Below, piece by piece: positions 42,923 through 55,403 of a stretch of 64,000 nt of DNA. The translations under genes and the position numbers were made by a program. Source of the DNA: Alphaproteobacteria bacterium. Lineage in GTDB: Bacteria; Pseudomonadota; Alphaproteobacteria; SP197. The DNA is taken from the NCBI GenBank assembly GCA_965228895.1, contig OZ245842.1, forward strand, positions 2,839,964 to 2,903,963. Reading direction: 5' to 3'. The notes under the pieces were generated by a model. The model saw only the letters and a program-made list of their open reading frames with translations, made no database searches and was not told where the DNA came from. The stretch's first letter is position 1. Each line of letters opens with the position of its first letter.

Positions 42923-44062
42923 CTACCCGTCGGTTGTCTCGAACAGGGTGAGCACGCCGGTATAGGCATAGAGGCGGTCGAACGAGATCTCGCCGTTGCC
43001 GAAGAAACCAACCATCGGCACGTCGCCCAACACCTCGCGCACGATCGCCATCTCGCTCTGGGCGCCATCAAACATGTTGGGGCCGCGCGCCAGGCAGCTG
43101 AAGTAGAGACCTCCGGCCACGTTACCGGCGCGCTTGCGAACGTCGCCGACCATTCGCTTCAGATCGGCTTCCGCGGCCGCGCGGTCGCGGCGGCAGAACA
43201 TCAGGGCATCGCCCATGCCGACACGCTCGCCGATCACCACCGCGCCACTGTTGGGTTCGATGCCGACCAGATTGCGCACCAGATAATCACCGGTATCGGA
43301 TCCGGACACCGGCAGACCAACGTGAAGGGATCCCGACAATTGGCGCGGGTCCGAAATACCCTCAGTCGCCAGTTCCTCGACGAACACATCCATCGCCGGG
43401 CGGTCATTCAAACAATGAACGACGTTCTCATCGACCTTGGTCACCTGATGAATACCGCCCAGCGGCACGCAGCCCTGCGTTAAACCGGTGCTGACGCGCA
43501 CAGAGCTGTCGAAAAGAACACCAGAGATCTCTCGCTCGACCGGGCGCCCCGCCATCTGCATGGTTGCGCCGCGCGACGAACTTAAGCCACCGACCAGATA
43601 GCCGTCGGTATCGCGCGCCAGACCGGCGATCGCCTCGACCAGATTGGGCATACGCGGATCACCATGGACGACGGCGAAACTACCCTGCCCCATCGCGCCG
43701 CCGCGCCGGTCGTCGTAACTGCGGACCGCCTCCTCCGCGCTGGTGAAAAGGCTCAAGGCGTCTTCGGGAAACCTGCCGGTCATCGCCGCAACCGCCGGCC
43801 GGTCAAAGTACTCGCTGCCGGCTGCGCAGATTCCGATGCCGACCGTGCCGCACCAGCTCGTCACACCGGTCGCGGCGGCCAGGAACCCCGCGATTTCACC
43901 GAGGGCGTCGGCGAAATGATCGGTGACATAGACAAAGCCCAGCGTGTCGTCGTCGCGGTCGCCCAAAACCTCGGCAACCGATCGGGCGGCCTGCTGCCAT
44001 GTTTCCGCGCTGGCATGGGCAACGTGAAACTGGCCGGTCACAACGTCAGATGTTTCGTTCAT
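42923..44062 (-). CDS. FIST-domain sensor protein
   Basis: 379 aa with N- and C-terminal FIST-type regions ('FVYVTDHFADAL...', 'MVGFFGNGEI'). Confidence 0.6.
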   Translation of the reverse strand: MNETSDVVTGQFHVAHASAETWQQAARSVAEVLGDRDDDTLGFVYVTDHFADALGEIAGFLAAATGVTSWCGTVGIGICAAGSEYFDRPAVAAMTGRFPEDALSLFTSAEEAVRSYDDRRGGAMGQGSFAVVHGDPRMPNLVEAIAGLARDTDGYLVGGLSSSRGATMQMAGRPVEREISGVLFDSSVRVSTGLTQGCVPLGGIHQVTKVDENVVHCLNDRPAMDVFVEELATEGISDPRQLSGSLHVGLPVSGSDTGDYLVRNLVGIEPNSGAVVIGERVGMGDALMFCRRDRAAAEADLKRMVGDVRKRAGNVAGGLYFSCLARGPNMFDGAQSEMAIVREVLGDVPMVGFFGNGEISFDRLYAYTGVLTLFETTDG

Positions 44063-44182: not shown

Positions 44183-44800
44183 GTGACAGCGAGATGCGGT
44201 TGGTTTCTGGGGTTCGCGTTGTCATGCCTGGTCATCGCACCGGCCACCGCCGAATCGATCACGGTCAAAGGACTGACCTTCACCGATGAGCTCGGCGGGT
44301 TTCGCCTGTTGGCGGCATGGGGCAGCGGTTCGCTCGAAGACCCGATCACGGTGGTCGAAGAAATCACCAGCACCAGGGGCGCCGTCTTGATGATCCGAGG
44401 CGTTGGCCCGCATACCGGCAACGCCATTCCGACCAACCATCCCGCCGGCTTCGCACTGCGCAAGATCGTCACCAACGCGACCAACCAGACCTGGACGTTC
44501 TTTGATATCGAGTTGCAGAAGTTGCTGGGTACACCAAGCGACATCTACGACGGGCTGTCGTTCGGCCAGGATGCGCAGGCCGGGCGGCCGTTTACCTCCA
44601 ATCGATTCGGCCAAAGCGTGTCGCAGGACGAGCCGCGCGATCACGTCACGTTTTTTGATGGCGTGGTCGAACCGGGCGAAACCGTCAGCATGGACTTCGT
44701 CATCACCGCAACCGGTTACGTCACAGAACTGATGCTGCTGCAAAAACCGAACCGCCCGGTCGCATCGATCGACGGCGGCGCCACGGACCACGGCGGATGA
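44183..44800 (+). CDS. Secreted hypothetical protein, translationally coupled to the downstream cyclase
   Basis: The signal peptide is 'FLGFALSCLVIAPATAES'. The stop overlaps the next gene's ATG (ATGA at 44797-44800). Confidence 0.5.
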   Translation: MTARCGWFLGFALSCLVIAPATAESITVKGLTFTDELGGFRLLAAWGSGSLEDPITVVEEITSTRGAVLMIRGVGPHTGNAIPTNHPAGFALRKIVTNATNQTWTFFDIELQKLLGTPSDIYDGLSFGQDAQAGRPFTSNRFGQSVSQDEPRDHVTFFDGVVEPGETVSMDFVITATGYVTELMLLQKPNRPVASIDGGATDHGG

Positions 44801-46464
44801 TCGCGCGCATCAGACTGGGCTCCGGGCTGGTGCTTATGGTCTTTCTTGCCAGCCACCTGATCAACCACGCGCTGGGCATCCATTCTCTGGCCTGGATGGA
44901 GGCTGGCCGGCGTGTCTTCGATGGGGTTTGGCGCAGTACGCCGGGCACGGTCGTGCTGTGCGCGGCACTGGTCCTCCATCTGGGCCTGGTCTTCTGGGCG
45001 CTCTACCGGCGCAACAGCCTGGCCATGCCGCCACGCGAGTGGGCCCAGCTCTTGCTGGGGCTCACCATACCGCTGCTGGTCGCAGAACACGTGGCCGGCA
45101 CAAGGGGCGCCAACGAACTGTTCGGCGTCAACGACACTTATCCCTACGTTATCTATGCGCTATGGGTGGACGCGCCGTGGAAAGGCGTTCTGCAGTCGGT
45201 CCTGATCATCACCGCCTGGCTGCACGGCTGCTTGGGGATACACTTCTGGCTGCGCCTGAAACCCTGGTATCGGCGCTGGCAATGGTGCGCCTTCAGCTTG
45301 GCAATCCTGGTCCCCATCCTTGCCCTTGGCGGTTTTGTCGGCGCCGGCATTGACGTCGCGCGCTTGGCCAGTGACCCCGACTGGCTGCCCGAGTTTCTCG
45401 CCTCGACCGGCGTCGGGCGCGTCTTCGAACAGCTCTCAGCCTTCATGGCCCAAGCGCAACTCTGGACGATCGCCGTGGTCGTGGCCTTGGTCGCCACCGT
45501 TCTGCTTCTCAGATGGCTTCGCATGGCATTTGCCGCCCGGCGAAAAGCCCCTCGCCTGACCTACCCCAACGGTCAGGTGGTCGAGATCGCGCCGGGCTCG
45601 ACCGTGCTGGAGACCAGCCGCGCCGCCGACATTCCCCACGCCTCGGTTTGCGGCGGGCGCGGCCGTTGCTCGACCTGCCGCGTCCGGCTGGGCCACGGTC
45701 GAGATGATCTGGAACCGCCCGACGCCGATGAGCGCAAGGTCTTGGAGCGCATCGGCGATCCACCCCATGTCCGCTTGGCGTGTCAGCTTCGCCCGACCGC
45801 GGACCTTGCAGTCACCCCCTTGCTGCCCGCGCACGCCGGCCCCGCCGACGCGGTCATGCGCCAACGACCCGCCGGCGCCGGACGGGAACAGGAGATCGCC
45901 GTATTGTTTGCCGACCTCCGGGGCTTCACCACGCTGTCGGAAGCCAACCTTCCCTATGACACCGTCTTTGTCCTGAACCGCTATTTCGAAGCCATGGGCC
46001 ATGCCATCGAGGGCGCCGGCGGGCAGATCGACAAGTTTATCGGTGACGGCGTCATGGCGCTGTTTGGCGTCGACGGCACGATCGATAATGGATGCCGCCA
46101 GGCACTCGACGCGACGGAGGCCATGAGCCACGCGCTTGCCGCGCTCAACCGTTCGCTCGCCAAGGAGATTGAACAGCCGCTTCGACTCGGCATCGGCCTG
46201 CATGTCGGGCCGGCGGTGATCGGCGAAATGGGGTACGGCGAAACCATGCACATGACGGCAATCGGCGACGTCGTGAACACGGCGAGCCGGCTGGAGGGTG
46301 CGACGAAAGATCTGCGCTGCGATCTCGTTGTCTCAGAGCGTGTCGTGGAGCTGGCCGGCGTGCCCGAGATGCCCGGGTTGCCTCACGATCTGACGGTTCG
46401 CGGCAAGCGGGAAACCCTTCGGGTACGCGCCATCAGCAACCTCGCCGGCACACCAAAGTTATAA
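44797..46464 (+). CDS. Class III adenylate cyclase with N-terminal 6TM domain and 2Fe-2S ferredoxin domain
   Basis: About 220 aa of transmembrane helices are followed by the Fer2-like region 'IPHASVCGGRGRCSTCRVRL...VRLACQ'. The cyclase core follows: 'IAVLFADLRGFT...KFIGDGVMALFG...GLHVGPAVIGEMG'. Confidence 0.75.
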   Translation: MIARIRLGSGLVLMVFLASHLINHALGIHSLAWMEAGRRVFDGVWRSTPGTVVLCAALVLHLGLVFWALYRRNSLAMPPREWAQLLLGLTIPLLVAEHVAGTRGANELFGVNDTYPYVIYALWVDAPWKGVLQSVLIITAWLHGCLGIHFWLRLKPWYRRWQWCAFSLAILVPILALGGFVGAGIDVARLASDPDWLPEFLASTGVGRVFEQLSAFMAQAQLWTIAVVVALVATVLLLRWLRMAFAARRKAPRLTYPNGQVVEIAPGSTVLETSRAADIPHASVCGGRGRCSTCRVRLGHGRDDLEPPDADERKVLERIGDPPHVRLACQLRPTADLAVTPLLPAHAGPADAVMRQRPAGAGREQEIAVLFADLRGFTTLSEANLPYDTVFVLNRYFEAMGHAIEGAGGQIDKFIGDGVMALFGVDGTIDNGCRQALDATEAMSHALAALNRSLAKEIEQPLRLGIGLHVGPAVIGEMGYGETMHMTAIGDVVNTASRLEGATKDLRCDLVVSERVVELAGVPEMPGLPHDLTVRGKRETLRVRAISNLAGTPKL

Positions 46465-47736: not shown

Positions 47737-48129
47737 CTACTGAGCGTCCGGGCTGTTGGCTTTCAGATAGGCAATGACGTTGGCGATGTCGTCCTCCTTG
47801 GTCAGGCGGAACGTCATTTTGACGCCAGAGATGTATTTGGTCGGCCCGGCCAACCATTCGGTCAGTGTTGCTTCGTCCCAAACGATGCCGGATTCGGGCA
47901 GCTTGCCGGAATCGAGCGATCCCGCTTCGTTTGAACCCGCCGCGCTGCCGTAGACCCCAAACAAATTTGGACCTTGCTTCGGTGCGCCGCCTTGTTCGAT
48001 CGTGTGGCAGACCTTGCAGCGGTTGAACACCTTCTCACCTTGGGCAACATCGCCTTCGGCCCAAGCCGATTGCGCGGTGAGCCCAAGAGCGAGCGTGAGC
48101 AAAGATCCGAAAGCGGCAACACGTTTCAT
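47737..48129 (-). CDS. Class I c-type cytochrome (c2/c550-like)
   Basis: The signal peptide is followed by the heme motif 'CKVCHT'. Met appears as sixth ligand in 'GVKMTF', and 'NVIAYLK' is typical of cytochrome c2. Confidence 0.8.
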   Translation of the reverse strand: MKRVAAFGSLLTLALGLTAQSAWAEGDVAQGEKVFNRCKVCHTIEQGGAPKQGPNLFGVYGSAAGSNEAGSLDSGKLPESGIVWDEATLTEWLAGPTKYISGVKMTFRLTKEDDIANVIAYLKANSPDAQ

Positions 48130-48227: not shown

Positions 48228-48716
48228 TTACGATCCCGTGCACTCACCGCAGTTTTCGACCGGCAGATCCCTGGCCAACCATCCCGGACCGTCGCCGCTG
48301 CCGACCATGCCCTCGCCAATATCGTAGATCTGTTCAAACCCCTCGCCCTCCAGAAGGACATGCGCGATCGCGGAACGAACGCCGGCGGCGCAAATCAACG
48401 CGATCGGGCGTGACCTGTCGCCACCGGCAAGAGCCGTGACCTCTTCGACAAAATCCAGGTTCGGCAGACCATAGGCCAGAAACAGACTTGCCCTGCCAGC
48501 GCCCTCAGGAATACCGGTTTCGCGCCACTCCGATTCCGTCCGGATGTCGACAATCAGAAGCTCGCCCTGGCCAGACTGCTGCCATGCGTCCGGTGCCGAG
48601 AGCAGACCGTCGCCCTCCGCATAAGCCGGCGCAATAACAAAGAACACGAGCGCAAAAGCAAGGGATGGGCCGCGAACGGCCCATCCCCAGATCATCAAGC
48701 AGACGTTGGTTGTCAT
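48228..48716 (-). CDS. Periplasmic rhodanese-domain protein (sulfurtransferase)
   Basis: The start is trimmed to 'MTTNVCLMIWGW' with a signal peptide 'AFALVFFVIAPAYA'. The rhodanese active-site loop is 'ICAAGVRS'. Confidence 0.65.
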   Translation of the reverse strand: MTTNVCLMIWGWAVRGPSLAFALVFFVIAPAYAEGDGLLSAPDAWQQSGQGELLIVDIRTESEWRETGIPEGAGRASLFLAYGLPNLDFVEEVTALAGGDRSRPIALICAAGVRSAIAHVLLEGEGFEQIYDIGEGMVGSGDGPGWLARDLPVENCGECTGS

Positions 48717-48729
48717 CGGTTGATGATGA

Positions 48730-51282
48730 TCAGTTTCGATACTCCTCGGGGATGAAGAGCAGCGAATCCACCTCGGCGCCAATATGACAGTCGATGCAGA
48801 ACGCCACCTTTTCTGTACCCTCCCCGTTTGTGGTGCCGACAGTCTTGCCGTTGGGCATGATCAGGGTGTAGCGCCAGTCATCGGAGTCGGCGTTAAATCC
48901 CGAAGCCATCTTCTCCATGACAAACAACGGTCCGGGCACCACCGTGCCCTTTGCCGTCACCGCGAAGCTGTCCTTGGCCAGCACGGCACCAGCAGGCATG
49001 GTGCCGCCGTTTTCGTACTCGCCATATGACTGCGCCGCTGCGGCGTCAGCGTAATTGTTCACGAAGCGTCCGCCGTGGGTGTACGACTTGTAGGGCACGG
49101 AGTTGTACTTTTCCCATCCGCTGTAGGCGGACGAGATGTCAAGACCGGTGCTGGACATCAAATTGGCCTTGGCATAGCCGACTTCCATCTGCGCCTTGAT
49201 GCAGTCGTAAGCCGCCACAGCCTCGTCATTGGTCAGTTCGATGTCGACGCCGGCACCGCAGCCGCCGCACGCACCACAGCCGCCACACGCACCGCAACCG
49301 CCGCACGCACCACAGGCTCCACAAGCACCACAAGCACCACAGCCGCCACACGCACCGCAGCCACCGCAAGCGCCACAGGCTCCGCAAGCGCCGCAGGCCG
49401 AGCAGGCATCGCAGGCACTGCAGCCCGCCGCCATGCCGGCCGCAGGAACCGCCTCCGGATTCTCCTGCAAGCTCGCGCCGCAACCGCCGCACGCGCCACA
49501 GGCACCGCACGCGCCGCAGCCGCCACAGGCTCCGCAATCGGCCCAAGCGATGCTCGGCACCACGCAACCGGTGTCGGCTTCTGCCGCACAACCGCCGCAT
49601 GCACCACAACCACCGCACGCGCCACACGCTCCGCAAGCACCACACGCGCCGCAGCCACCACAGGCTCCGCATGCACCGCATGCACCGCATGCACCGCATG
49701 CACCGCATGCGTCACAAGCAGAACATGCGCCGCAAGCAGAACATGCGCCGCAGCCTGCCGCCATGCCGCTTGGCAACGCTTCCGGGTTCTCATGGCTGGC
49801 GCCATCTTCGTCGTCGGACCCGTCGGATTTCTCACCGCGCGGTTCCCACCAGTCCTCGCCGTCGCGTTTGGCACGCACTGCAAACTTCATGGCGCCATTC
49901 GAGTCTTCCAGGCTGGCGCCGCAACATCCACCACACGCACCGCAGGCATCACAGGCCGCGCAACACGCCGAGCACGCATCACACGCGCCGCAAGCCGAGC
50001 ACGCATCGCAGGCACCGCAGCCCGCCGCCATGCCAGTCGGCAGGGCGTCCGGATTGTCGAGGCTGGCGCCGCAGCATCCACCACACGCACCGCAGGCATC
50101 ACAAGCCGCACAACATGCCGAACACGCATCACACGCGCCGCAAGCCGAGCACGCATCGCACGCACCGCAGCCCGCCGCCATGCCGGTCGGCAGGGCGTCC
50201 GGATTGTCGAGGCTGGCGCCGCAGCATCCACCGCACGCACCGCAGGCATCACAGGCCGCACAACATGCCGAACACGCATCGCACGCGCCGCAAGCCGAGC
50301 ACGCATCGCACGCACCGCAGCCCGCCGCCATGCCGGTCGGCAGGGCGTCCGGATTGTCGAGGCTTGCGCCGCAACATCCACCGCACGCTCCGCAGGCATC
50401 ACAAGCCGCGCAACACGCCGAGCACGCATCACACGCGCCGCAAGCCGAGCACGCATCGCAGGCACCGCAGCCCGCCGCCATGCCAGTCGGCAGGGCGTCC
50501 GGATTGTCGAGGCTGGCGCCGCAACATCCACCGCAAGCTCCGCAGGCATCACAGGCCGCGCAACACGCCGAGCACGCATCACACGCGCCGCAAGCCGAGC
50601 ACGCATCGCACGCACCGCAGCCAGCCGCCATGCCGGTCGGCAGGGCGTCCGGATTGTCGAGGCTGGCGCCGCAACATCCACCGCAAGCTCCGCAGGCATC
50701 ACAAGCCGCGCAACATGCCGAACACGCATCACACGCGCCGCAAGCCGAGCACGCATCGCACGCACCGCAGCCCGCCGCCATGCCAGTCGGCAGGGCGTCC
50801 GGATTGTCGAGGCTTGCGCCGCAACATCCACCACACGCACCGCAGGCATCACAAGCCGCGCAACATGCCGAACACGCATCACACGCGCCGCAAGCCGAGC
50901 ACGCATCGCACGCACCGCAGCCCGCCGCCATGCCAGTCGGCAGGGCGTCCGGATTGTCGAGGCTTGCGCCGCAACATCCACCACACGCACCGCAGGCATC
51001 ACAGGCCGCGCAACACGCCGAACACGCATCGCACGCGCCGCAAGCCGAGCACGCATCGCACGCACCGCAGCCCGCCGCCATGCCGGTCAAAGCACGATCG
51101 GCGATGGACAAGGAGGCGGGCATGGGAACGGCGGCCGGATTTTCGACCGCGCGTGGATTGACAAGGCGACAGCTGGCGCGACCACAAGGCGCTGCCGCAA
51201 CGCTGACGGCAAGCGCAACGCCGGCGCCCATAAAGGCCGGCAGCATCGTGCTCGACAGCAGATTACGTTTGAGTTCACTCAT
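48730..51282 (-). CDS. Secreted giant Cys-periodic repeat protein fused to a cytochrome P460-like heme domain
   Basis: A GGGAGG ribosome-binding site sits 11 nt upstream. The signal peptide is 'MSELKRNLLSSTMLPAFMGAGVALAVSVAAAP'. Eight 43-aa units 'MAAGCGACDACSACGACDACSACCAACDACGACGGCCGASLDNPDALPTG' follow, then further (CxA/CxG)n blocks. The ~165-aa C-terminus 'DDWRYTLIMPNGK...VAFCIDCHIGAEVDSLLF' has a CXXCH motif and the P460/c'-beta family pattern. The heme domain has no signal peptide of its own, so it must be exported using the N-terminal one. Confidence 0.6.
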   Translation of the reverse strand: MSELKRNLLSSTMLPAFMGAGVALAVSVAAAPCGRASCRLVNPRAVENPAAVPMPASLSIADRALTGMAAGCGACDACSACGACDACSACCAACDACGACGGCCGASLDNPDALPTGMAAGCGACDACSACGACDACSACCAACDACGACGGCCGASLDNPDALPTGMAAGCGACDACSACGACDACSACCAACDACGACGGCCGASLDNPDALPTGMAAGCGACDACSACGACDACSACCAACDACGACGGCCGASLDNPDALPTGMAAGCGACDACSACGACDACSACCAACDACGACGGCCGASLDNPDALPTGMAAGCGACDACSACGACDACSACCAACDACGACGGCCGASLDNPDALPTGMAAGCGACDACSACGACDACSACCAACDACGACGGCCGASLDNPDALPTGMAAGCGACDACSACGACDACSACCAACDACGACGGCCGASLEDSNGAMKFAVRAKRDGEDWWEPRGEKSDGSDDEDGASHENPEALPSGMAAGCGACSACGACSACDACGACGACGACGACGACGGCGACGACGACGACGGCGACGGCAAEADTGCVVPSIAWADCGACGGCGACGACGACGGCGASLQENPEAVPAAGMAAGCSACDACSACGACGACGACGGCGACGGCGACGACGACGACGGCGACGGCGACGGCGAGVDIELTNDEAVAAYDCIKAQMEVGYAKANLMSSTGLDISSAYSGWEKYNSVPYKSYTHGGRFVNNYADAAAAQSYGEYENGGTMPAGAVLAKDSFAVTAKGTVVPGPLFVMEKMASGFNADSDDWRYTLIMPNGKTVGTTNGEGTEKVAFCIDCHIGAEVDSLLFIPEEYRN
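49990..51081. repeat. Eight near-identical tandem 129-bp in-frame DNA repeats
   Basis: The period is 129 bp and the units are nearly identical, differing by about 1-5 nt each. A less regular 9-bp (CxA)n periodicity continues to about 49230. Confidence 0.85.
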
Positions 51283-51457
51283 AACCGAAGAAACCTCCCA
51301 AATATCCCAGTTGCCCTGCCCTCACGACAACGTGTCGACCGCTGCCTTTGAAAGTCGGCGAAACTATCGCCCCATAGCTCGAGGGTGCAGGGCGATGATA
51401 TCGACTGACTTCGACATGGAACCAGTGATTTCCCTTTCACGTTAGCGTGAGAATGTA

Positions 51458-52336
51458 GTGGTGAAAAAGCCAGGGCTAGTGCGGCTTTCCGGCCTAACAC
51501 TTGTAATCTTTGCAGGCATAGTGATGACGCCGGCATGGGCCCAGGACCCACCCCTGCCCGGCATGGACGTCATCGAGATTCCGGCCGGATCGTTTCTTGC
51601 CGGATCAACATCGGAAGAACGCGAGCGCGCCTATCAGCTCGACGAAGCTGCTTACGGCCACAGCCGCACCCGCGAACGCGGCTGGTACGAAGACGATGAC
51701 GACCTGCACGAGGTCTATCTCGACACCTATTGGATCACCAAGAATCTGATCACCAACGCCCAGTATCAGGTCTTTGTCGAGGCTACGGGCCATCGAGTCC
51801 CGGACATCGACAAGGAGACCTGGGACGGCTTCGGCCTGATCCACCCTTACGAAAGAACGCGTCAATTCGCCTGGACAGATGGTGTGCCGCCGACCGGCCG
51901 CGAGGATCATCCGGTGGTCATGGTCAACCATGCCGATGCAACAGCGTTCGCCGTATGGCTATCTGAGGAAACCGGTCAGACCTGGCGGTTGCCGAGCGAA
52001 ATGGAGTGGCAAAAGGCGGCGCGCGGCACGGACGGGCGGATGTTCCCGTGGGGCGACGAATGGGATCCCAACCTGGCGAACACGCACGATGCCGGCCCGT
52101 TTCGAACCGTGCCGGTGGGCTCTTTTCCCGAAGCCGCAAGTCCTTATGGCATGTTGGATGCCGCGGGCCAGGTGTTTGAATGGACGACGACCTTGAAACG
52201 CCCCGGCCGTTACTGGGTCAAGGGCGGGTCCTGGGATGACCGCGGGTGCGGCGTGTGCCGGCCAGCCGACCGGCACAGCCGCCCCGAGGACATTCAGCAC
52301 ATACTTGTCGGATTCAGGCTCGTGCTGGAACCCTGA
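51458..52336 (+). CDS. Secreted FGE-sulfatase (SUMF1/EgtB/PvdO) family protein
   Basis: The signal peptide is 'LTLVIFAGIVMTPAWAQ'. Family motifs are 'HPVVMVNHADATAFAVWLS', 'RLPSEMEWQKAARG' and 'GNVFEWT'-like 'GQVFEWTT'. Confidence 0.75.
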   Translation: MVKKPGLVRLSGLTLVIFAGIVMTPAWAQDPPLPGMDVIEIPAGSFLAGSTSEERERAYQLDEAAYGHSRTRERGWYEDDDDLHEVYLDTYWITKNLITNAQYQVFVEATGHRVPDIDKETWDGFGLIHPYERTRQFAWTDGVPPTGREDHPVVMVNHADATAFAVWLSEETGQTWRLPSEMEWQKAARGTDGRMFPWGDEWDPNLANTHDAGPFRTVPVGSFPEAASPYGMLDAAGQVFEWTTTLKRPGRYWVKGGSWDDRGCGVCRPADRHSRPEDIQHILVGFRLVLEP

Positions 52337-52800: not shown

Positions 52801-53592
52801 TTGAAAGGTGGTGGCGCTGACGCCATCCTCACGCCCATGGCAATGACAGAAACCGCGACACCGGGCCTGGACGTCGATCTACCGCGACGGGTCCAGCTCG
52901 ATGATTTGGACCGCAGCGACCTCGAAGAGATGCTCGAGGCCGGGCGTGATGTGCTCGAATGCTACCGGGTGCTGCGCAAAAACAACGACAACGTGGTCGG
53001 CGAACTGCTGCGCGACGTCGAAACCTTCTACCAGTGGCAGCACTATCCAAAGGGTGACATCTTCGACCGGGAGACCGGCAGCCAGTTCTATTATCACGCC
53101 CACCCTAAGGCCAGCCGGCCGGGTGAGCATGGCCATTTCCACACCTTCATGCGCGCCAAAGGGATGCCCAAGGGCACCGAACCCGTCCCTTACGACGGCG
53201 ACAAGGTGTGGCCCTTGGGTCCCGATGCGCTGAGCCATCTGATCGCGATATCGATGGATCCAAAGGGGTATCCCATCGGCTTGTTCACGGTGAACCGGTG
53301 GGTCACCGGGGACACGTGGTATGCCGCCGAGGATGTGGTGAAGATGGTCGACCTGTTCGACATCGATCACGCCCGCCCCTCCTGGCCGGTCAACCGCTGG
53401 GTCACGGCGATGATGCGCCTGTTCCGTCCGCTGGTGCATGACCTCGTAAGGGAACGCGATCTGGTCATGGCGGCATGGCGCGACAGTCATCCGGGAACCG
53501 ATGTCTATGCCGACCACGGTCTTGAGATCACGTCGGCCAGCACGATTTCCGTCGAGAAGCAGATCACGCGCATCCGCAGTCTTCTCGCCTAG
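52801..53592 (+). CDS. Conserved hypothetical protein
   Basis: 263 aa containing 'YYHAHPKASRPGEHGHFHTF'. I do not recognise a characterised family. The start may be the internal 'MAMTETA'. Confidence 0.45.
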   Translation: MKGGGADAILTPMAMTETATPGLDVDLPRRVQLDDLDRSDLEEMLEAGRDVLECYRVLRKNNDNVVGELLRDVETFYQWQHYPKGDIFDRETGSQFYYHAHPKASRPGEHGHFHTFMRAKGMPKGTEPVPYDGDKVWPLGPDALSHLIAISMDPKGYPIGLFTVNRWVTGDTWYAAEDVVKMVDLFDIDHARPSWPVNRWVTAMMRLFRPLVHDLVRERDLVMAAWRDSHPGTDVYADHGLEITSASTISVEKQITRIRSLLA

Positions 53593-54053: not shown

Positions 54054-54572
54054 TCATTCGGCAAAGCCTATCCATGGCGAATCGGGCTTACGGCTGAATG
54101 CCGCCGAGCCATCCGCGACCTGCGCCTGAACGGTCTTCCAGTTATCGGCGCCGCGCGTGATGCGCGAACGCATGTCGGAGGTCCATTGGCCTTTAACCTG
54201 TTCATCCCAATTCAGATAGAGCTTGTCGTCGACAACGCTCCACGCCGTCGCGGGATCGACTTCGGCGGCATACGCGCCAACCGACAGCGCATAGGCACAC
54301 CAACCGCCGAACTGCGGCGCGTAGGCTTCGGGATCGCCGGCAAAGAGGTCACGGTTTTCGGCGCTGGCGAAATGCCACGTCGCGCCGTTCCAAGCATGGC
54401 TCAGTGTGGGATCGCCTTGCACGGCTTCACCTTGGGTGAAGTAAGCGACCGTGTCATAGCCACCAATCGCGACGCCATCGGGCGTCACATTCACTGAGCT
54501 GTCGGCATGCGCCCAATGGGTGAAGAGCGCCGACGCCAGCATCACACACAGCACGAAAGCGATTCGTCGCAT
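54054..54572 (-). CDS. Secreted YHS-domain protein
   Basis: The start is trimmed to 'MRRIAFVLCVMLASALFTHWAHA'. 'AIGGYDTVAYF' and 'GGWCAYAL' are YHS-like. Confidence 0.55.
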   Translation of the reverse strand: MRRIAFVLCVMLASALFTHWAHADSSVNVTPDGVAIGGYDTVAYFTQGEAVQGDPTLSHAWNGATWHFASAENRDLFAGDPEAYAPQFGGWCAYALSVGAYAAEVDPATAWSVVDDKLYLNWDEQVKGQWTSDMRSRITRGADNWKTVQAQVADGSAAFSRKPDSPWIGFAE

Positions 54573-54668
54573 AGCCCGATCCTCTCCGGTCGTTTCGCGC
54601 AACATCATCGGCCAAAGTGACCTCGACGCGCCAATCGCCGTTGGCCACCATGTCGATAGCCTGGTGCT

Positions 54669-54681
54669 ATGGTCCGACCAT
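54669..54681. promoter_or_regulatory. 13-bp perfect palindrome in the divergent YHS/ZIP promoter
   Basis: ATGGTC-C-GACCAT lies about 40 bp upstream of the ZIP transporter start. It is a candidate operator for a metalloregulator. Confidence 0.35.
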
Positions 54682-54719
54682 CGCATCACCGGCGCCAACC
54701 CGCTGCAGGAATCCTGCCG

Positions 54720-55403
54720 ATGACGAATACTCTCTTAGGGGTTCTCGCCTTCACGCTGATCCCCTGTATCGGCATTCTTGCCGGCAGCGCAGCCGCCCTG
54801 GCACGTGCGCCAGGGCCGAGACTGATCAGCGCGTTTCAGCACTTTGCCGCCGGTGTGGTGTTTGCCGCGGTGGCGGTGGAACTACTGCCGCAACTCCACA
54901 CTCTGGATTCACCAGTCGCCATGATCGTCGGCTTTGTGCTGGGGATCGGGGCGATGCTGATGTTCAAGGCCCTGTTCGAAGATGCCGGTATCGTTGTTCC
55001 CATGACCGTGGACCTTTTCGTCGACGGCTTACTGATCGCCGTCGGTTTTGCTGCCGGCGTGATGGGCGGGACGGTTCTGTTGATTGGCCTGACGCTGGAA
55101 ACGCTGTCGCTGGGACTGTCGACGGCCCCCGCGCTGGTAAAGCGCGGCATGACACGGTCGCGGGCTGTTGTGATGTTGGTCGCGATCAGCCTGGCCATCC
55201 TTGTCGGCGCGGCGGCCGGTCATCTCATTGCCGGCATGTCGGGCGCCTTTCTGGCCGGTATTCTTGGTTTCGGTGTCGCGGCGCTGCTCTATCTGGTGAC
55301 CGAAGAATTGTTGAGCGAAGCGCACGAGGTGCCGGATACGCCGATCGTCACCGCGACCTTCTTCGCCGGTTTCCTGGTGCCTATCGTGATAGCGGCCGCC
55401 TGA
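54720..55403 (+). CDS. zupT: ZIP-family metal (zinc) transporter
   Basis: The start is trimmed to 'MTNTLLGVLAF'. Eight helices are predicted, with a metal-binding TM4-5 region 'HLIAGMSG' and the ZIP signature 'LVTEELLSEAHE'. Confidence 0.7.
   Translation: MTNTLLGVLAFTLIPCIGILAGSAAALARAPGPRLISAFQHFAAGVVFAAVAVELLPQLHTLDSPVAMIVGFVLGIGAMLMFKALFEDAGIVVPMTVDLFVDGLLIAVGFAAGVMGGTVLLIGLTLETLSLGLSTAPALVKRGMTRSRAVVMLVAISLAILVGAAAGHLIAGMSGAFLAGILGFGVAALLYLVTEELLSEAHEVPDTPIVTATFFAGFLVPIVIAAA

What the first reader, a model, noticed from the sequence alone, without database searches (positions are those of the whole stretch)
49990..51081. Eight near-identical 129-bp tandem repeats inside a coding region: expansion-prone locus and assembly-risk region
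The repeat unit is exactly 43 codons. The copies are nearly identical, differing by about 1-5 nt each, which suggests recent expansion by slipped-strand or unequal recombination and likely copy-number variation between strains. All six frames stay open across the repeats, which produces many spurious overlapping ORFs. The array is not a CRISPR: there are no unique spacers and no cas genes, and the repeats are in frame.
Basis: seen in the sequence. Interest (0 to 1): 0.6.

Follow-up and report, generated by a model that had tools for sequence, protein, structure and literature searches.

The report
Giant cysteine-rich periplasmic haem protein gene
The tandem repeat is real, but it is 8 x 150 bp on the minus strand and encodes eight identical 50-residue cysteine-packed modules at the front of an overlooked 850-residue secreted cytochrome P460-type haem protein. 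This protein belongs to a widespread family in marine bacteria that I could not find described and that is routinely mis-annotated; it probably acts as a high-capacity thiol sponge for metals or other thiol-reactive compounds.

Summary
The period is 150 bp (50 codons), not 129 bp (43 codons). There are 7.9 copies at 49910-51088, and five of six frames are open, not six. The coding strand is minus: ORF 48730-51282 encodes 850 aa. It has a signal-peptide-like N-terminus, eight 50-aa modules (13 Cys each), further (G-A-C)n blocks and a C-terminal cytochrome P460/c'-beta domain. In total it has 155 Cys, mostly spaced every third residue.

Every difference among units (13 sites) and between two 99%-identical strains (54 of 54) is a synonymous third-position change. 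Synonymous diversity among units is about 0.18 against 0.01 in flanking genes between strains. The units are therefore old, strongly constrained and shuffled by gene conversion, not recently expanded. Copy number is 8 in both strains. A relative at about 82% identity has 18.9 units of 126 bp (1219 aa, 253 Cys).

Public gene calls truncate the gene to 152 aa and call an antisense ORF, and short-read contigs often end inside the region. Relatives are common in marine Alphaproteobacteria. About half of the loci with full flanks lie next to a periplasmic FGE-like protein or DUF6969. The function is untested. My best guess is a capacity-scaling periplasmic thiol array that binds soft metals, possibly Cu(I).

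The parts
48730..51282 (-). Full gene: 850-aa Cys-rich cytochrome P460-family protein (155 Cys, 18%). ATG at 51282, with GGGAGG 11 nt upstream.
   Evidence: Translation. The N-terminus MSELKRNLLSST... is conserved in homologues. 54 of 54 between-strain substitutions fall on codon position 3 of this frame. Composition. RBS.
51190..51282 (-). Signal-peptide-like N-terminus (codons 1-31: K/R n-region, hydrophobic MLPAFMGAGVALAVSVAAA). No twin-arginine motif.
   Evidence: Read from the sequence and conserved across the family. No signal-peptide predictor was available, so this is an inference.
51124..51144 (-). ENPAAVP motif that precedes the first Cys block. Units 2-8 each begin with a copy of it (DNPDALP).
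   Evidence: Homologues carry [EA]NP[EDA]A[VL]P at the same place.
49915..51114 (-). The tandem array: eight 150-bp units (codons 57-456). Units 2-8 are identical in amino-acid sequence, SLDNPDALPTGMAAGCGACDACSACGACDACSACCAACDACGACGGCCGA (13 Cys per unit). Unit 1 differs only in its first 11 residues.
   Evidence: All variable columns are synonymous third positions.
49777..49914 (-). Charged, Cys-free spacer (codons 457-502) between the array and the distal Cys blocks.
49213..49776 (-). Distal Cys-rich blocks (codons 503-690), mainly (G-A-C)n with 9-bp DNA periodicity. They include two more ENPEA[LV]P...GMAAGC module starts.
49684..49710 (-). 27 bp (9 codons, ACGACGACG) present here and absent in the 99%-identical strain L001. 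It lies in the only tract with perfect 9-bp periodicity (44 bp).
49549..49566 (-). Central CVVPSI motif. The family consensus is C-x-V-P-R-[LI], between Cys-block groups.
48733..49206 (-). C-terminal cytochrome P460/c'-beta domain (codons 693-850). Haem motif CIDCH at 48784-48798, LAKDSF Lys at 48964-48981, VMEKM Glu at 48907-48921.
   Evidence: Pfam PF16694, 29.3 bits against a cut-off of 27. AF2 pLDDT 91.6. The top 8 Foldseek PDB hits are all cyt c'-beta or P460. hhalign. Coordinates.
51458..52336 (+). Divergently transcribed FGE-sulfatase-fold protein with its own signal peptide and a conserved GGSWDDxGCGxCR motif. It is a frequent neighbour of family members.
   Evidence: Pfam, 1.1e-41. 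PDB relatives ToxD, CalU17 and FGE. Conservation. Adjacency 20/46, and 41/80 next to DUF6969.
52801..53592 (+). DUF6969 protein with no signal peptide and many invariant His/Asp/Glu. It is a frequent neighbour. The true start is probably the ATG about 12 codons in.
   Evidence: Pfam, 1.2e-84. Invariant columns. Adjacency 22/46.
48228..48716 (-). Periplasmic single-domain rhodanese (active-site loop CAAGVRS). It starts 13 bp after the P460 stop codon and is probably co-transcribed.
   Evidence: Conserved next to the gene in the window's own clade (11 loci).
47737..48129 (-). Class I c-type cytochrome (c550-like) with a signal peptide, downstream on the same strand.
   Evidence: A neighbour in 25/81 loci.

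Best explanation
Identity (shown, about 0.95). The repeat is the coding sequence, on the minus strand, of eight identical 50-residue cysteine-rich modules. They form the N-terminal two-thirds of an 850-aa Sec-exported protein whose C-terminus is a cytochrome P460/c'-beta haem domain. The gene belongs to a large family in marine Alphaproteobacteria that I could not find described and that is systematically mis-annotated. In this family a (C-x-x)n region of very variable length precedes the haem domain.

Array dynamics (shown). The protein sequence is held constant by strong purifying selection. Synonymous variants are shuffled among units by gene conversion or unequal exchange, and module number and length change between species.

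Function (inferred, about 0.4). The Cys region is a capacity-type periplasmic thiol array. Each C-x-x-C pair is a soft-ligand site, so adding modules adds binding capacity. The most likely ligand is a soft metal; Cu(I) is my first guess. The array is held next to a redox-active haem domain and works together with the neighbouring periplasmic FGE-like protein, a putative cuproenzyme. The P460 domain itself probably retains small-molecule chemistry (NH2OH/NO), with the downstream cytochrome c as its electron partner.
For: Coding frame:
- The 850-codon ORF is continuous from the conserved N-terminus to the P460 domain.
- All 13 within-array variable sites and all 54 between-strain substitutions are third-position and synonymous. 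Within the array pN = 0 and pS = 0.18.

Architecture across the family:
- The same architecture is seen in 66 of 68 complete homologous genes.
- The Cys-Cys spacing is 3 in 123 of 154 intervals here and in 1775 of 2875 family-wide.

Haem domain:
- Pfam hit above the gathering score, AF2 pLDDT 91.6, and Foldseek top hits are only cyt c'-beta or P460.
- The Lys and Glu align with the NeP460 cross-link Lys70 and distal Glu96 (criteria from PMC11928373).

Capacity logic:
- 54 of 81 loci carry in-frame tandem repeats of lineage-specific periods, 45-192 bp.
- A relative at about 82% identity has 18.9 units and 253 Cys.
- The Cys module also occurs alone, or flanking a class I cytochrome c, and in one close relative without the P460 domain.

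Copper lead:
- The FGE-like neighbour has a signal peptide and a conserved Cys pair.
- FGEs are cuproenzymes. Sec-exported Cys-repeat copper binders (bufferins, oxazolins, up to 58 Cys) and a Buf1|Cytochrom_C|FGE-sulfatase fusion are documented (PMC12452194).
Against: - No metal binding was or could be tested here.
- No recognised copper or metal homeostasis family is enriched among 150 neighbouring ORFs.
- The periplasm is oxidising, so many of these Cys may be disulfide-bonded rather than free thiolates.
- Net charge of the region is not conserved: it is acidic here and Lys-rich in many homologues.
- AF2 finds no confident fold for the array (pLDDT 43.6).
- About half of the family loci with full flanks have neither FGE-like nor DUF6969 nearby.
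- The signal peptide was judged by eye.
Confidence: 0.4

Rival explanations
1. The Cys-rich region is mainly a substrate for post-translational modification by the linked enzymes. These are the periplasmic FGE-like protein (Cys oxidation, for example to formylglycine or another Cys-derived group) and/or the cytoplasmic His-rich DUF6969. This would be an MNIO-independent counterpart of bufferin-type maturation, and the modified residues rather than free thiols would be the functional groups.
For: - FGE-like and DUF6969 are the two most frequent neighbours.
- They stay paired with each other even away from P460 (41/80).
- In L123 the order DUF6969, small (CNPC)n protein, FGE-like, (CNPC)n-P460 looks like an operon.
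- 69% of C-x-x-C spacers family-wide are N-P, which gives C-x-P, the first half of the FGE recognition motif C-x-P-x-R.
- DUF6969 has many invariant His/Asp/Glu.
- The identical modules each begin with a conserved ENP...GMAAGC stretch, which resembles a multi-core precursor.
Against: - The window protein has no C-x-P in its Cys blocks and no C-x-P-x-R anywhere, yet it keeps the FGE-like neighbour.
- The FGE-like active-site region reads C-G-x-C, not the FGE C-x4-C.
- Half of the family loci lack both enzymes within 4.5 kb.
- No RiPP recognition element, protease or exporter family is enriched nearby.
- No chemistry was tested.
Confidence: 0.2
2. The thiol array serves the chemistry of the attached haem or of the neighbouring rhodanese. 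It would act as a periplasmic redox or nucleophile buffer that traps NO+ equivalents or NH2OH-derived species made at the P460 haem (S-nitrosation). Alternatively it would carry sulfane sulfur as persulfides or polysulfides handed over by the rhodanese, with cytochrome c as the electron outlet (Sox-like logic).
For: - The P460 domain keeps the Lys and Glu positions that define NH2OH-oxidising P460s.
- Rhodanese and cytochrome c lie immediately downstream on the same strand. The rhodanese stays linked even where the P460 domain is absent (L084).
- Sulf_transp and DSBA families appear in a few neighbourhoods.
- Cys modules are fused to two different kinds of haem protein.
Against: - Rhodanese adjacency is limited to the window's own clade (11 of 81 loci).
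- Stand-alone Cys-rich proteins exist without any haem domain.
- Nothing explains why up to 250 thiols would be needed.
- No experimental precedent was found in the literature searches.
Confidence: 0.15
3. The region is a structural element: a disulfide-laddered, low-complexity stalk or tether that spaces, anchors or cross-links the haem domain in the cell envelope, with no ligand-binding role.
For: - It has low-complexity composition with small residues and Pro.
- Its length is highly variable between species.
- AF2 gives no globular fold.
- It sits directly after the signal peptide, as many envelope linkers do.
Against: - A mere linker would not be expected to keep eight 50-residue modules 100% identical at protein level, with pN = 0 against pS = 0.18.
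- Nor would it keep a strict Cys period of 3 across a family whose haem domains are only about 50% identical.
- The stand-alone Cys-rich proteins have nothing to tether.
Confidence: 0.1
4. The long ORF is not real. Either the true gene is the 152-aa P460 call and the repeat is non-coding, or it belongs to the antisense ORF chosen by public gene callers, or the array is an assembly artefact.
For: - A public gene call gives a 152-aa product and an antisense 725-aa ORF.
- In that antisense frame 40 of 48 between-strain changes are also synonymous.
- GC2 exceeds GC3 in the real frame, which is atypical.
Against: - In the sense frame 48 of 48 array changes are synonymous, against 40 of 48 in the antisense frame. 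The antisense frame shares third codon positions with the sense frame, so its excess is a by-product.
- The ORF runs uninterrupted from the conserved N-terminus to the haem domain in dozens of species.
- Two independent assemblies have the same 8 units.
Confidence: 0.02

Closest known systems
Cytochrome P460 / cytochrome c'-beta superfamily (NeP460, McP460, McCP-beta; Pfam PF16694)
   Same: The C-terminal 158 residues have the same fold (AF2 plus Foldseek). They also have the C-terminal CxxCH motif and a Lys and a Glu at the positions of the NeP460 cross-link Lys70 and distal Glu96 (PMC11928373). The protein is exported, like the known members.
   Different: Characterised members are proteins of about 15-20 kDa with no N-terminal extension. 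The 2025 review of the superfamily has no occurrence of 'cysteine-rich', 'extension' or 'fusion'. Here about 640 residues carrying 150 Cys precede the domain. The sequence is too diverged for phmmer or hmmsearch to reach any PDB entry.
Bufferins / oxazolins (MNIO-modified periplasmic copper-binding RiPPs and proteins; PMC12452194)
   Same: Both have a Sec-type signal peptide, repeated Cys-containing motifs and sometimes very long 'precursors' (up to 58 Cys). Both act in the periplasm, and the known group shows occasional association with cytochrome c and FGE-sulfatase domains.
   Different: No MNIO (DUF692) or DUF2063 gene lies nearby. There is no DUF2282 or BUF-family HMM hit. The motif is C-x-x-C, not EGKCG or 6/12-Cys. 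The linked genes are FGE-like and DUF6969. The Cys count is 3-4 times higher.
Metallothioneins and modular Cys-rich metal sponges (general knowledge: bacterial SmtA/BmtA, MymT, expanded fungal Cu-metallothioneins)
   Same: Cys content is very high (18% overall, 24% in the region). C-x-x-C motifs are separated by small residues. Aromatic residues are almost absent from the Cys blocks. Capacity could scale with the number of modules.
   Different: The protein is exported rather than cytosolic, and about 10 times larger. It has a strict period of 3, is fused to a haem domain, and shows no Pfam metallothionein hit at E<=1. Metal binding is untested.
Csp copper storage proteins (general knowledge: Cys-lined four-helix bundles, Csp1 exported in methanotrophs)
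   Same: An extracytoplasmic Cys-rich protein of this kind is a precedent for Cys-based Cu(I) storage outside the cytoplasm. The low-confidence AF2 model of the array is helical hairpins.
   Different: The signal peptide has no twin-arginine motif. There is no Pfam hit. The AF2 confidence is too low to support a bundle (pLDDT 43.6). The Pro-rich C-N-P-C variants that dominate the family are unlikely to be helical.
Formylglycine-generating enzyme and its sulfatase substrates (C-x-P-x-R)
   Same: The neighbouring enzyme has the FGE-sulfatase fold with a conserved Cys pair. Family-wide, the dominant tripeptide C-N-P matches Cys(0)/Pro(+2) of the FGE motif.
   Different: There is no Arg at +4. The window protein lacks C-x-P in its Cys blocks. 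The enzyme's Cys pair is C-G-x-C rather than C-x4-C. Its closest solved relatives by sequence are ToxD and CalU17, not FGE.

Membership tests
Cytochrome P460 / c'-beta superfamily | Pfam PF16694 match at or above the gathering score | tested here: met
   29.3 bits against a cut-off of 27, residues 735-839. Most homologues carry a precomputed PF16694 hit.
Cytochrome P460 / c'-beta superfamily | Characteristic mainly-beta fold | tested here: met
   AF2 pLDDT 91.6, pTM 0.88. Foldseek PDB ranks 1-8 are all cyt c'-beta or P460, probability 1.00, TM 0.41-0.65 normalised to the target.
Cytochrome P460 / c'-beta superfamily | Single CxxCH haem c attachment motif near the C-terminus | tested here: met
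   CIDCH at residues 829-833. C, C and H are invariant in 66 sequences.
Cytochrome P460 proper (as opposed to c'-beta) | Lys at the haem cross-link position (NeP460 Lys70) and a distal carboxylate (Glu96) for NH2OH oxidation (PMC11928373, Table 2) | tested here: inconclusive
   hhalign aligns the invariant K of LAKDSF and E of VMEKM with these residues.
Cytochrome P460 proper | About 460 nm ferrous Soret band; NH2OH oxidation | not testable with these tools
   Needs purified protein.
Bufferin / oxazolin (MNIO-dependent RiPPs) | Adjacent MNIO (DUF692) enzyme and DUF2063-type partner | tested here: not met
   Neither family appears in Pfam scans of the window neighbours or among the 25 commonest of the 80 families matched by 150 neighbour ORFs of homologous loci.
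Bufferin / oxazolin (MNIO-dependent RiPPs) | Sec signal peptide plus repeated Cys motifs | tested here: met
   The N-terminus is signal-peptide-like by eye, and there are 155 Cys in repeats. This is a resemblance only.
Bufferin / oxazolin (MNIO-dependent RiPPs) | Match to precursor family models (DUF2282 and related) | tested here: not met
   No Pfam hit at E<=1 or NCBIfam hit at E<=0.01 other than P460.
Metallothionein | Family HMM match (for example the prokaryotic metallothionein Pfam model) | tested here: not met
   Pfam at E<=1 returns only PF16694.
Metallothionein | Stoichiometric metal-thiolate cluster binding | not testable with these tools
   Needs metal analysis.
Csp copper storage protein | Cys-lined four-helix bundle | tested here: inconclusive
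   The AF2 single-sequence model is helical, but mean pLDDT is 43.6 and pTM 0.21.
FGE substrate (sulfatase-type) | C-x-P-x-R motif | tested here: not met
   The motif is absent from the window protein. Homologues have C-N-P-C without Arg.
CRISPR array | Short repeats separated by unique spacers, with cas genes nearby | tested here: not met
   The 150-bp units are head to tail with no spacers. There are no cas families among the neighbours.
Phase-variable contingency locus (simple-sequence ON/OFF switch) | Repeat unit not a multiple of 3, so that slippage shifts the frame | tested here: not met
   The periods are 150 bp and 9 bp here, and all 54 long-period repeats in relatives are multiples of 3. 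The observed indel is 27 bp. Length varies but the frame does not.

The most novel reading that the evidence does not exclude
The (C-x-x)n module, the periplasmic FGE-like protein (C-G-x-C) and the cytoplasmic His-rich DUF6969 together form a previously unrecognised maturation and function system, independent of MNIO enzymes. Sec-exported poly-cysteine proteins would be enzymatically processed into a very high-capacity periplasmic binder or redox polymer, for copper or another soft ligand. These proteins occur stand-alone or fused to P460 or cytochrome c. The system has stayed invisible because gene callers systematically miss or invert these ORFs.
Probability: 0.2. Interest if true: 0.85.

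Novelty: new variant of a known kind. Interest (0 to 1): 0.68.

Why it matters
1. Annotation. A whole family of large exported proteins is being truncated or replaced by antisense ORFs in public annotation. The family has at least 537 relatives among GTDB species representatives, with up to 253 Cys per protein. Short-read MAGs break inside these genes, so protein databases barely contain them: only 5 hits among 1.8 billion cluster representatives.

2. Biochemistry. Proteins that are 18-24% cysteine in the oxidising periplasm, fused to a P460 haem domain, are unexpected. They offer a testable link between thiol or metal chemistry and the nitrogen-oxide chemistry of P460 in abundant marine heterotrophs.

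3. Evolution. The locus is a clean natural example of a coding tandem array kept identical at protein level while its synonymous sites diverge and are shuffled. The only perfectly periodic tract is also the only one that shows a length change between strains.

4. Gene context. It gives the FGE-like/DUF6969 gene pair a candidate partner.

Tried and rejected
- Full-length protein homology search. The 8000 word-sharing candidates produced nothing at E<=0.001, because low complexity swamps the index and the scoring. I switched to the C-terminal domain.
- Sequence searches of the P460 domain (single sequence and profile) against PDB chains found no relevant hit. The fold search was needed instead.
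- HMMER search of 1.84 billion cluster representatives with the N-terminal 172 aa gave only 5 hits, all the same kind of protein.
- AF2 of the eight-unit array without an alignment gave pLDDT 43.6, which is uninformative.
- NCBIfam and Pfam scans of the Cys-rich region found nothing.
- For DUF6969, a Pfam scan at E<=10 and a PDB profile search found no remote relatives.
- Literature searches found nothing on the Cys-rich extension, DUF6969, or peptide strings such as CNPCNPC. The searches combined P460 with cysteine-rich or with formylglycine, and covered periplasmic Cys-rich repeats. One search was wasted because CGACGAC matches primer DNA.
- I looked for a small stand-alone Cys-rich ORF between the FGE-like gene and DUF6969 in the window, as in L123. 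There is none.
- I considered Fe-S (ferredoxin-like CxxCxxCxxxC) binding and rejected it. The spacing is not conserved, and the signal peptide has no twin-arginine motif for export of a folded protein.
- I considered a lipoprotein signal and rejected it, because A-A-P-C is not a lipobox.
- I considered a collagen-like Gly-X-Y helix and rejected it, because the periodic residue is Cys, not Gly.
- The sigma-70 promoter scan found nothing.


Full report
OBSERVATION

Tandem Repeats Finder reports one dominant array at 49910-51088: period 150 bp, 7.9 copies, 96% matches, score 2106. The repeat finder gives 8 copies at exact 150-nt spacing. Shorter 9/18/27-bp periodicities fill 49250-49750. Five of the six frames are open across the array, and one minus frame has 14 stops. 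There are no spacers between units, so the array is not a CRISPR.

WHICH STRAND CODES

The minus-strand ORF 48730-51282 (850 codons, ATG, GGGAGG 11 nt upstream) reads through the whole region.

- Among units 2-8, all 13 variable columns are third codon positions of this frame and all are synonymous.
- A sister strain, L001 (ENA ERZ26167852 contig_1), is 99.08% identical over 12.5 kb. It differs in the gene by 54 substitutions, all at codon position 3 of this frame, plus one 27-bp in-frame indel. The two proteins are identical except for 9 residues, ACGACGACG.
- Within the array, 48 of 48 changed codons are synonymous in the sense frame. The counts are 0 of 48 in three other frames and 8 of 48 in a fourth.
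- In one plus-strand frame 40 of 48 are synonymous. That frame shares third codon positions with the real one and is the frame public gene callers picked, so its excess is a by-product.

THE PROTEIN

The layout is as follows.

- Residues 1-31: a signal-peptide-like segment (MSELKRNLLSSTMLPAFMGAGVALAVSVAAA). This was judged by eye. There is no twin-arginine motif and no lipobox.
- Then an ENPAAVP motif.
- Residues 57-456: eight 50-residue units, SLDNPDALPTGMAAGCGACDACSACGACDACSACCAACDACGACGGCCGA. Units 2-8 are identical, and unit 1 differs in its first 11 residues.
- Residues 457-502: a charged, Cys-free spacer.
- Residues 503-690: further (G-A-C)n blocks containing two more ENPEA[LV]P..GMAAGC module starts and a central CVVPSI motif.
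- Residues 693-850: a C-terminal domain with CIDCH.

The protein has 155 Cys, 197 Ala and 143 Gly, and 123 of its 154 Cys-to-Cys intervals are exactly 3 residues.

THE C-TERMINAL DOMAIN

- It matches Pfam Cytochrome_P460 just above the gathering score (29.3 against 27).
- It has 316 homologues at E<=1e-3 in the word-indexed protein search.
- With a 66-sequence alignment it folds confidently (pLDDT 91.6).
- Its eight best Foldseek PDB matches are all cytochrome c'-beta or P460. Sequence-only PDB searches miss them.
- An hhalign against the N. europaea P460 sequence places the family-invariant Lys (LAKDSF) and Glu (VMEKM) on Lys70 and Glu96. These are the residues that a 2025 review lists as defining cross-linked, NH2OH-oxidising P460s (PMC11928373). 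I treat this assignment as a lead, not a test.

DYNAMICS OF THE ARRAY

- Units differ at pS = 0.18 (range 0.08-0.28) with pN = 0.
- Between the two strains, the array compared position by position has pS = 0.166. Seven flanking genes have pS = 0.0105.
- The between-strain differences fall on the same 15 two-allele synonymous columns that vary among units, and the haplotypes are mosaics. For example, window unit 4 equals L001 unit 3.
- The simplest reading is an old array whose pre-existing synonymous variants are reshuffled by gene conversion or unequal exchange, under very strong protein-level constraint. It is not a recent expansion.
- Copy number is 8 in both strains.
- The only between-strain length change sits in the only tract with perfect 9-bp periodicity, which is 44 bp long.
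- Codon choice in the Cys region is more even than in 25 other genes of the window. GAT is 54% against 32%, and Gly GGT+GGA is 49% against 26%. GC2 (0.81) exceeds GC3 (0.65). This lowers DNA-level repetitiveness and misleads gene finders.
- In a related species (L162, flanks about 82% identical) the orthologue is 1219 aa with 253 Cys and 18.9 units of 126 bp.
- In L084 the Cys-rich ORF has three units of a different sequence (CC pairs), ends without a P460 domain and is followed directly by the rhodanese.

ANNOTATION AND ASSEMBLY

- The database protein for this gene is a 152-aa fragment starting at an internal Met (P0001).
- On L001 the caller placed a 725-aa antisense ORF over the Cys region. 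On L162 it placed a 975-aa antisense ORF.
- 13 of 81 related contigs end inside the Cys-rich region, including L002 (97% identical), which stops 51 codons upstream of the haem domain.

THE FAMILY

- A scan of one genome per GTDB species found 537 relatives of the haem domain. The best 80 are marine Alphaproteobacteria: Rhodospirillales, Kiloniellales, Sneathiellales, Pelagibius and Aestuariispira insulae.
- Extending each match upstream in frame shows a Cys-rich extension in 66 of 68 complete genes. The median is about 35 Cys and the maximum 159.
- The layout is shared: conserved N-terminus (..LLSTT.IP..), [EA]NPxAxP, Cys blocks, a central C-x-V-P-R-[LI], more Cys blocks, then P460.
- Family-wide the Cys interval is 3 in 1775 of 2875 cases, and the spacer is N-P in 69% of them.
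- 54 of 81 genes contain their own long-period repeats (45-192 bp, all multiples of 3). This points to repeated, independent module expansion.

GENOMIC CONTEXT

- In the window, the gene is followed on the same strand by a periplasmic rhodanese (13-bp gap) and a class I cytochrome c. It is preceded divergently by an FGE-sulfatase-fold protein with its own signal peptide, then by DUF6969.
- Among 46 homologous loci with at least 4.5 kb on both sides, 20 have the FGE-like gene, 22 have DUF6969 and 23 have at least one of them. Usually FGE-like lies immediately upstream and divergent.
- A Pfam census of 150 neighbouring ORFs ranks DUF6969 (13), FGE-sulfatase (11), Cytochrom_C (8), Sel1 (8) and a second P460 (8) at the top. 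No copper or metal homeostasis family is enriched.
- Searching metagenomes from the DUF6969 side, FGE-like is adjacent in 41 of 80 loci and a P460 domain in only 6.
- (CNPC)n proteins also turn up there in other forms. These include stand-alone proteins of about 105 aa (signal peptide plus Cys repeats) and a class I cytochrome c flanked on both sides by (CNPC)n. L123 has the same-strand series DUF6969, small (CNPC)n, FGE-like, (CNPC)n-P460.
- The Cys module is therefore a portable element, and the haem domain is optional.
- The FGE-like proteins conserve GGSWDDxGCGxCR, a C-G-x-C pair where FGE has C-x4-C. Their nearest solved relatives by sequence are ToxD and CalU17.
- DUF6969 has no signal peptide, many invariant His/Asp/Glu and no detectable remote homologue.

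MECHANISM

Shown:
- The array is translated, and the protein appears to be exported (the signal peptide was judged by eye).
- It is extremely thiol-rich with a period of 3.
- Its protein sequence is strongly constrained.
- Its module number changes in evolution.
- It is attached to a P460-fold haem domain.

Inferred: recurrent independent expansion of otherwise invariant modules argues that the number of C-x-x-C sites is what matters, as in a binding or buffering capacity.

A soft metal is my preferred ligand, with Cu(I) the first guess, for three reasons:
- C-x-x-C is the classical Cu(I), Hg(II) and Zn(II) chelating pair.
- The commonest partner has the fold of a known cuproenzyme.
- There is published precedent for Sec-exported Cys-repeat copper binders (bufferins, oxazolins, up to 58 Cys) and for a Buf1|Cytochrom_C|FGE-sulfatase fusion (PMC12452194).

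Against this:
- No metal-homeostasis genes are enriched nearby.
- The compartment is oxidising.
- Net charge of the region is not conserved.
- AF2 finds no fold.
- Nothing has been measured.

Rivals:
- The region is above all a substrate of FGE-like and DUF6969. The family's C-N-P matches the first half of the FGE motif, but the window protein lacks it.
- It buffers or carries reactive nitrogen or sulfur species for the haem domain and the rhodanese.
- It is a disulfide-laddered tether.

COMPARISON AND NOVELTY

The haem domain is a member of the P460/c'-beta superfamily: the HMM, fold and haem-motif tests are met, and the cross-link Lys test is inconclusive. The Cys region works most like a metallothionein or a bufferin/oxazolin-type periplasmic binder, but it fails their membership tests. 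It matches no family HMM, and it has no MNIO or DUF2063 neighbours.

The P460 review I searched has no occurrence of 'cysteine-rich', 'extension' or 'fusion'. Full-text searches for the peptide strings, for DUF6969 and for P460 combined with cysteine-rich or formylglycine returned nothing. I therefore rate it a new variant of a known kind, with a real chance that the Cys module, FGE-like and DUF6969 trio is a new system.

CAVEATS

- The function is untested.
- The signal peptide was judged by eye.
- ORF starts in homologues were taken as the first start codon after a stop, so some extensions are over-long.
- Adjacency counts use tblastn within 4.5-8 kb only.
- The strain comparison of copy number rests on a single pair.

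Noticed in passing
L001 3771-5948 (-), corresponding to window 49241-51445 (+); L162 1876-4803 (-): Public gene callers call long antisense ORFs (725 and 975 aa) over the Cys-rich region and truncate the real gene to 152 aa. The antisense frame shares third codon positions with the real frame, so 40 of 48 strain differences look synonymous in it.
   Followed up: yes
window 49213-51114 (-): The Cys-rich region has GC2 (0.81) above GC3 (0.65) and more even synonymous codon use than 25 other genes of the window (for example GAT 54% against 32%). This may reflect selection against perfect DNA repeats.
   Followed up: partly
window 48661-48688 (-): A strong terminator-like hairpin (12-bp stem, 9 GC, then TGCTTTTGCG) lies just after the P460 stop codon, inside the signal-peptide coding part of the rhodanese gene. 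It may be a partial terminator or attenuator between the two genes.
   Followed up: no
L162 1761-5459 (+): The orthologue in a species about 82% identical is 1219 aa with 253 Cys and 18.9 units of 126 bp (42 codons). Its units are only 83% alike and differ in amino-acid sequence, unlike the window's.
   Followed up: yes
L084 707-1372 (-): A close relative (DUF6969 91% identical) has a Cys-rich protein with three CC-pair-rich units and no P460 domain, followed directly by the rhodanese. This is either real domain loss or a collapsed short-read assembly.
   Followed up: partly
L085 3578-3904 (+); L087 1847-2188 (+); L089/L090 9392-9733 (+); L123 8868-9191 (+); L149 8856-9080 (-); L083 2610-2915 (-): Stand-alone proteins of about 105 aa, consisting of a signal peptide plus (CNPC)n, lie near DUF6969 or FGE-like genes with no haem domain.
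   Followed up: partly
L089 6783-7631 (+); L090 6642-7631 (+): A class I cytochrome c (CQSCH) is flanked on both its N- and C-terminal sides by (CNPC)n repeats, next to an FGE-like fragment and DUF6969. The two contigs differ in repeat number.
   Followed up: no
L019 6520-7230 (+); L020 6523-7233 (+): A second P460-family gene without a Cys-rich extension lies immediately downstream of the Cys-rich one. Pfam found a second P460 among the neighbours in 8 of the 150 ORFs scanned.
   Followed up: no
window 52801-53592 (+) and alignment A3: DUF6969 has many invariant His/Asp/Glu (H46, D51, D54, H64, H66, E74, H77, H79, H111, D154, H155 in alignment numbering), which suggests a metal site. Its fold is unknown, and no remote homologue was found by sequence.
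   Followed up: partly
P0124, P0125: Two database proteins have the same N-terminus and Cys modules, but a different C-terminal region that ends ...WRYTLS without a CxxCH motif. They may be truncated or diverged P460-like domains.
   Followed up: no
L163 1234-2700 (+): In another relative the reading frame upstream of the distal Cys blocks is broken (out-of-frame translation), and the contig starts inside the region. This is probably long-read indel error or a pseudogene.
   Followed up: no
window 44797-46464 (+) and 42923-44062 (-): A 2Fe-2S ferredoxin domain fused to an adenylate/guanylate cyclase domain, and a FIST-domain protein, lie a few kb away. They are syntenic only in the closest relatives.
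   Followed up: no
window 54054-54698 (-) and 54669-55403 (+): Weak, sub-threshold matches to a YHS domain and to a ZIP zinc transporter lie just beyond DUF6969. They are present only in this genome's lineage, so they give no support for a conserved metal link.
   Followed up: partly
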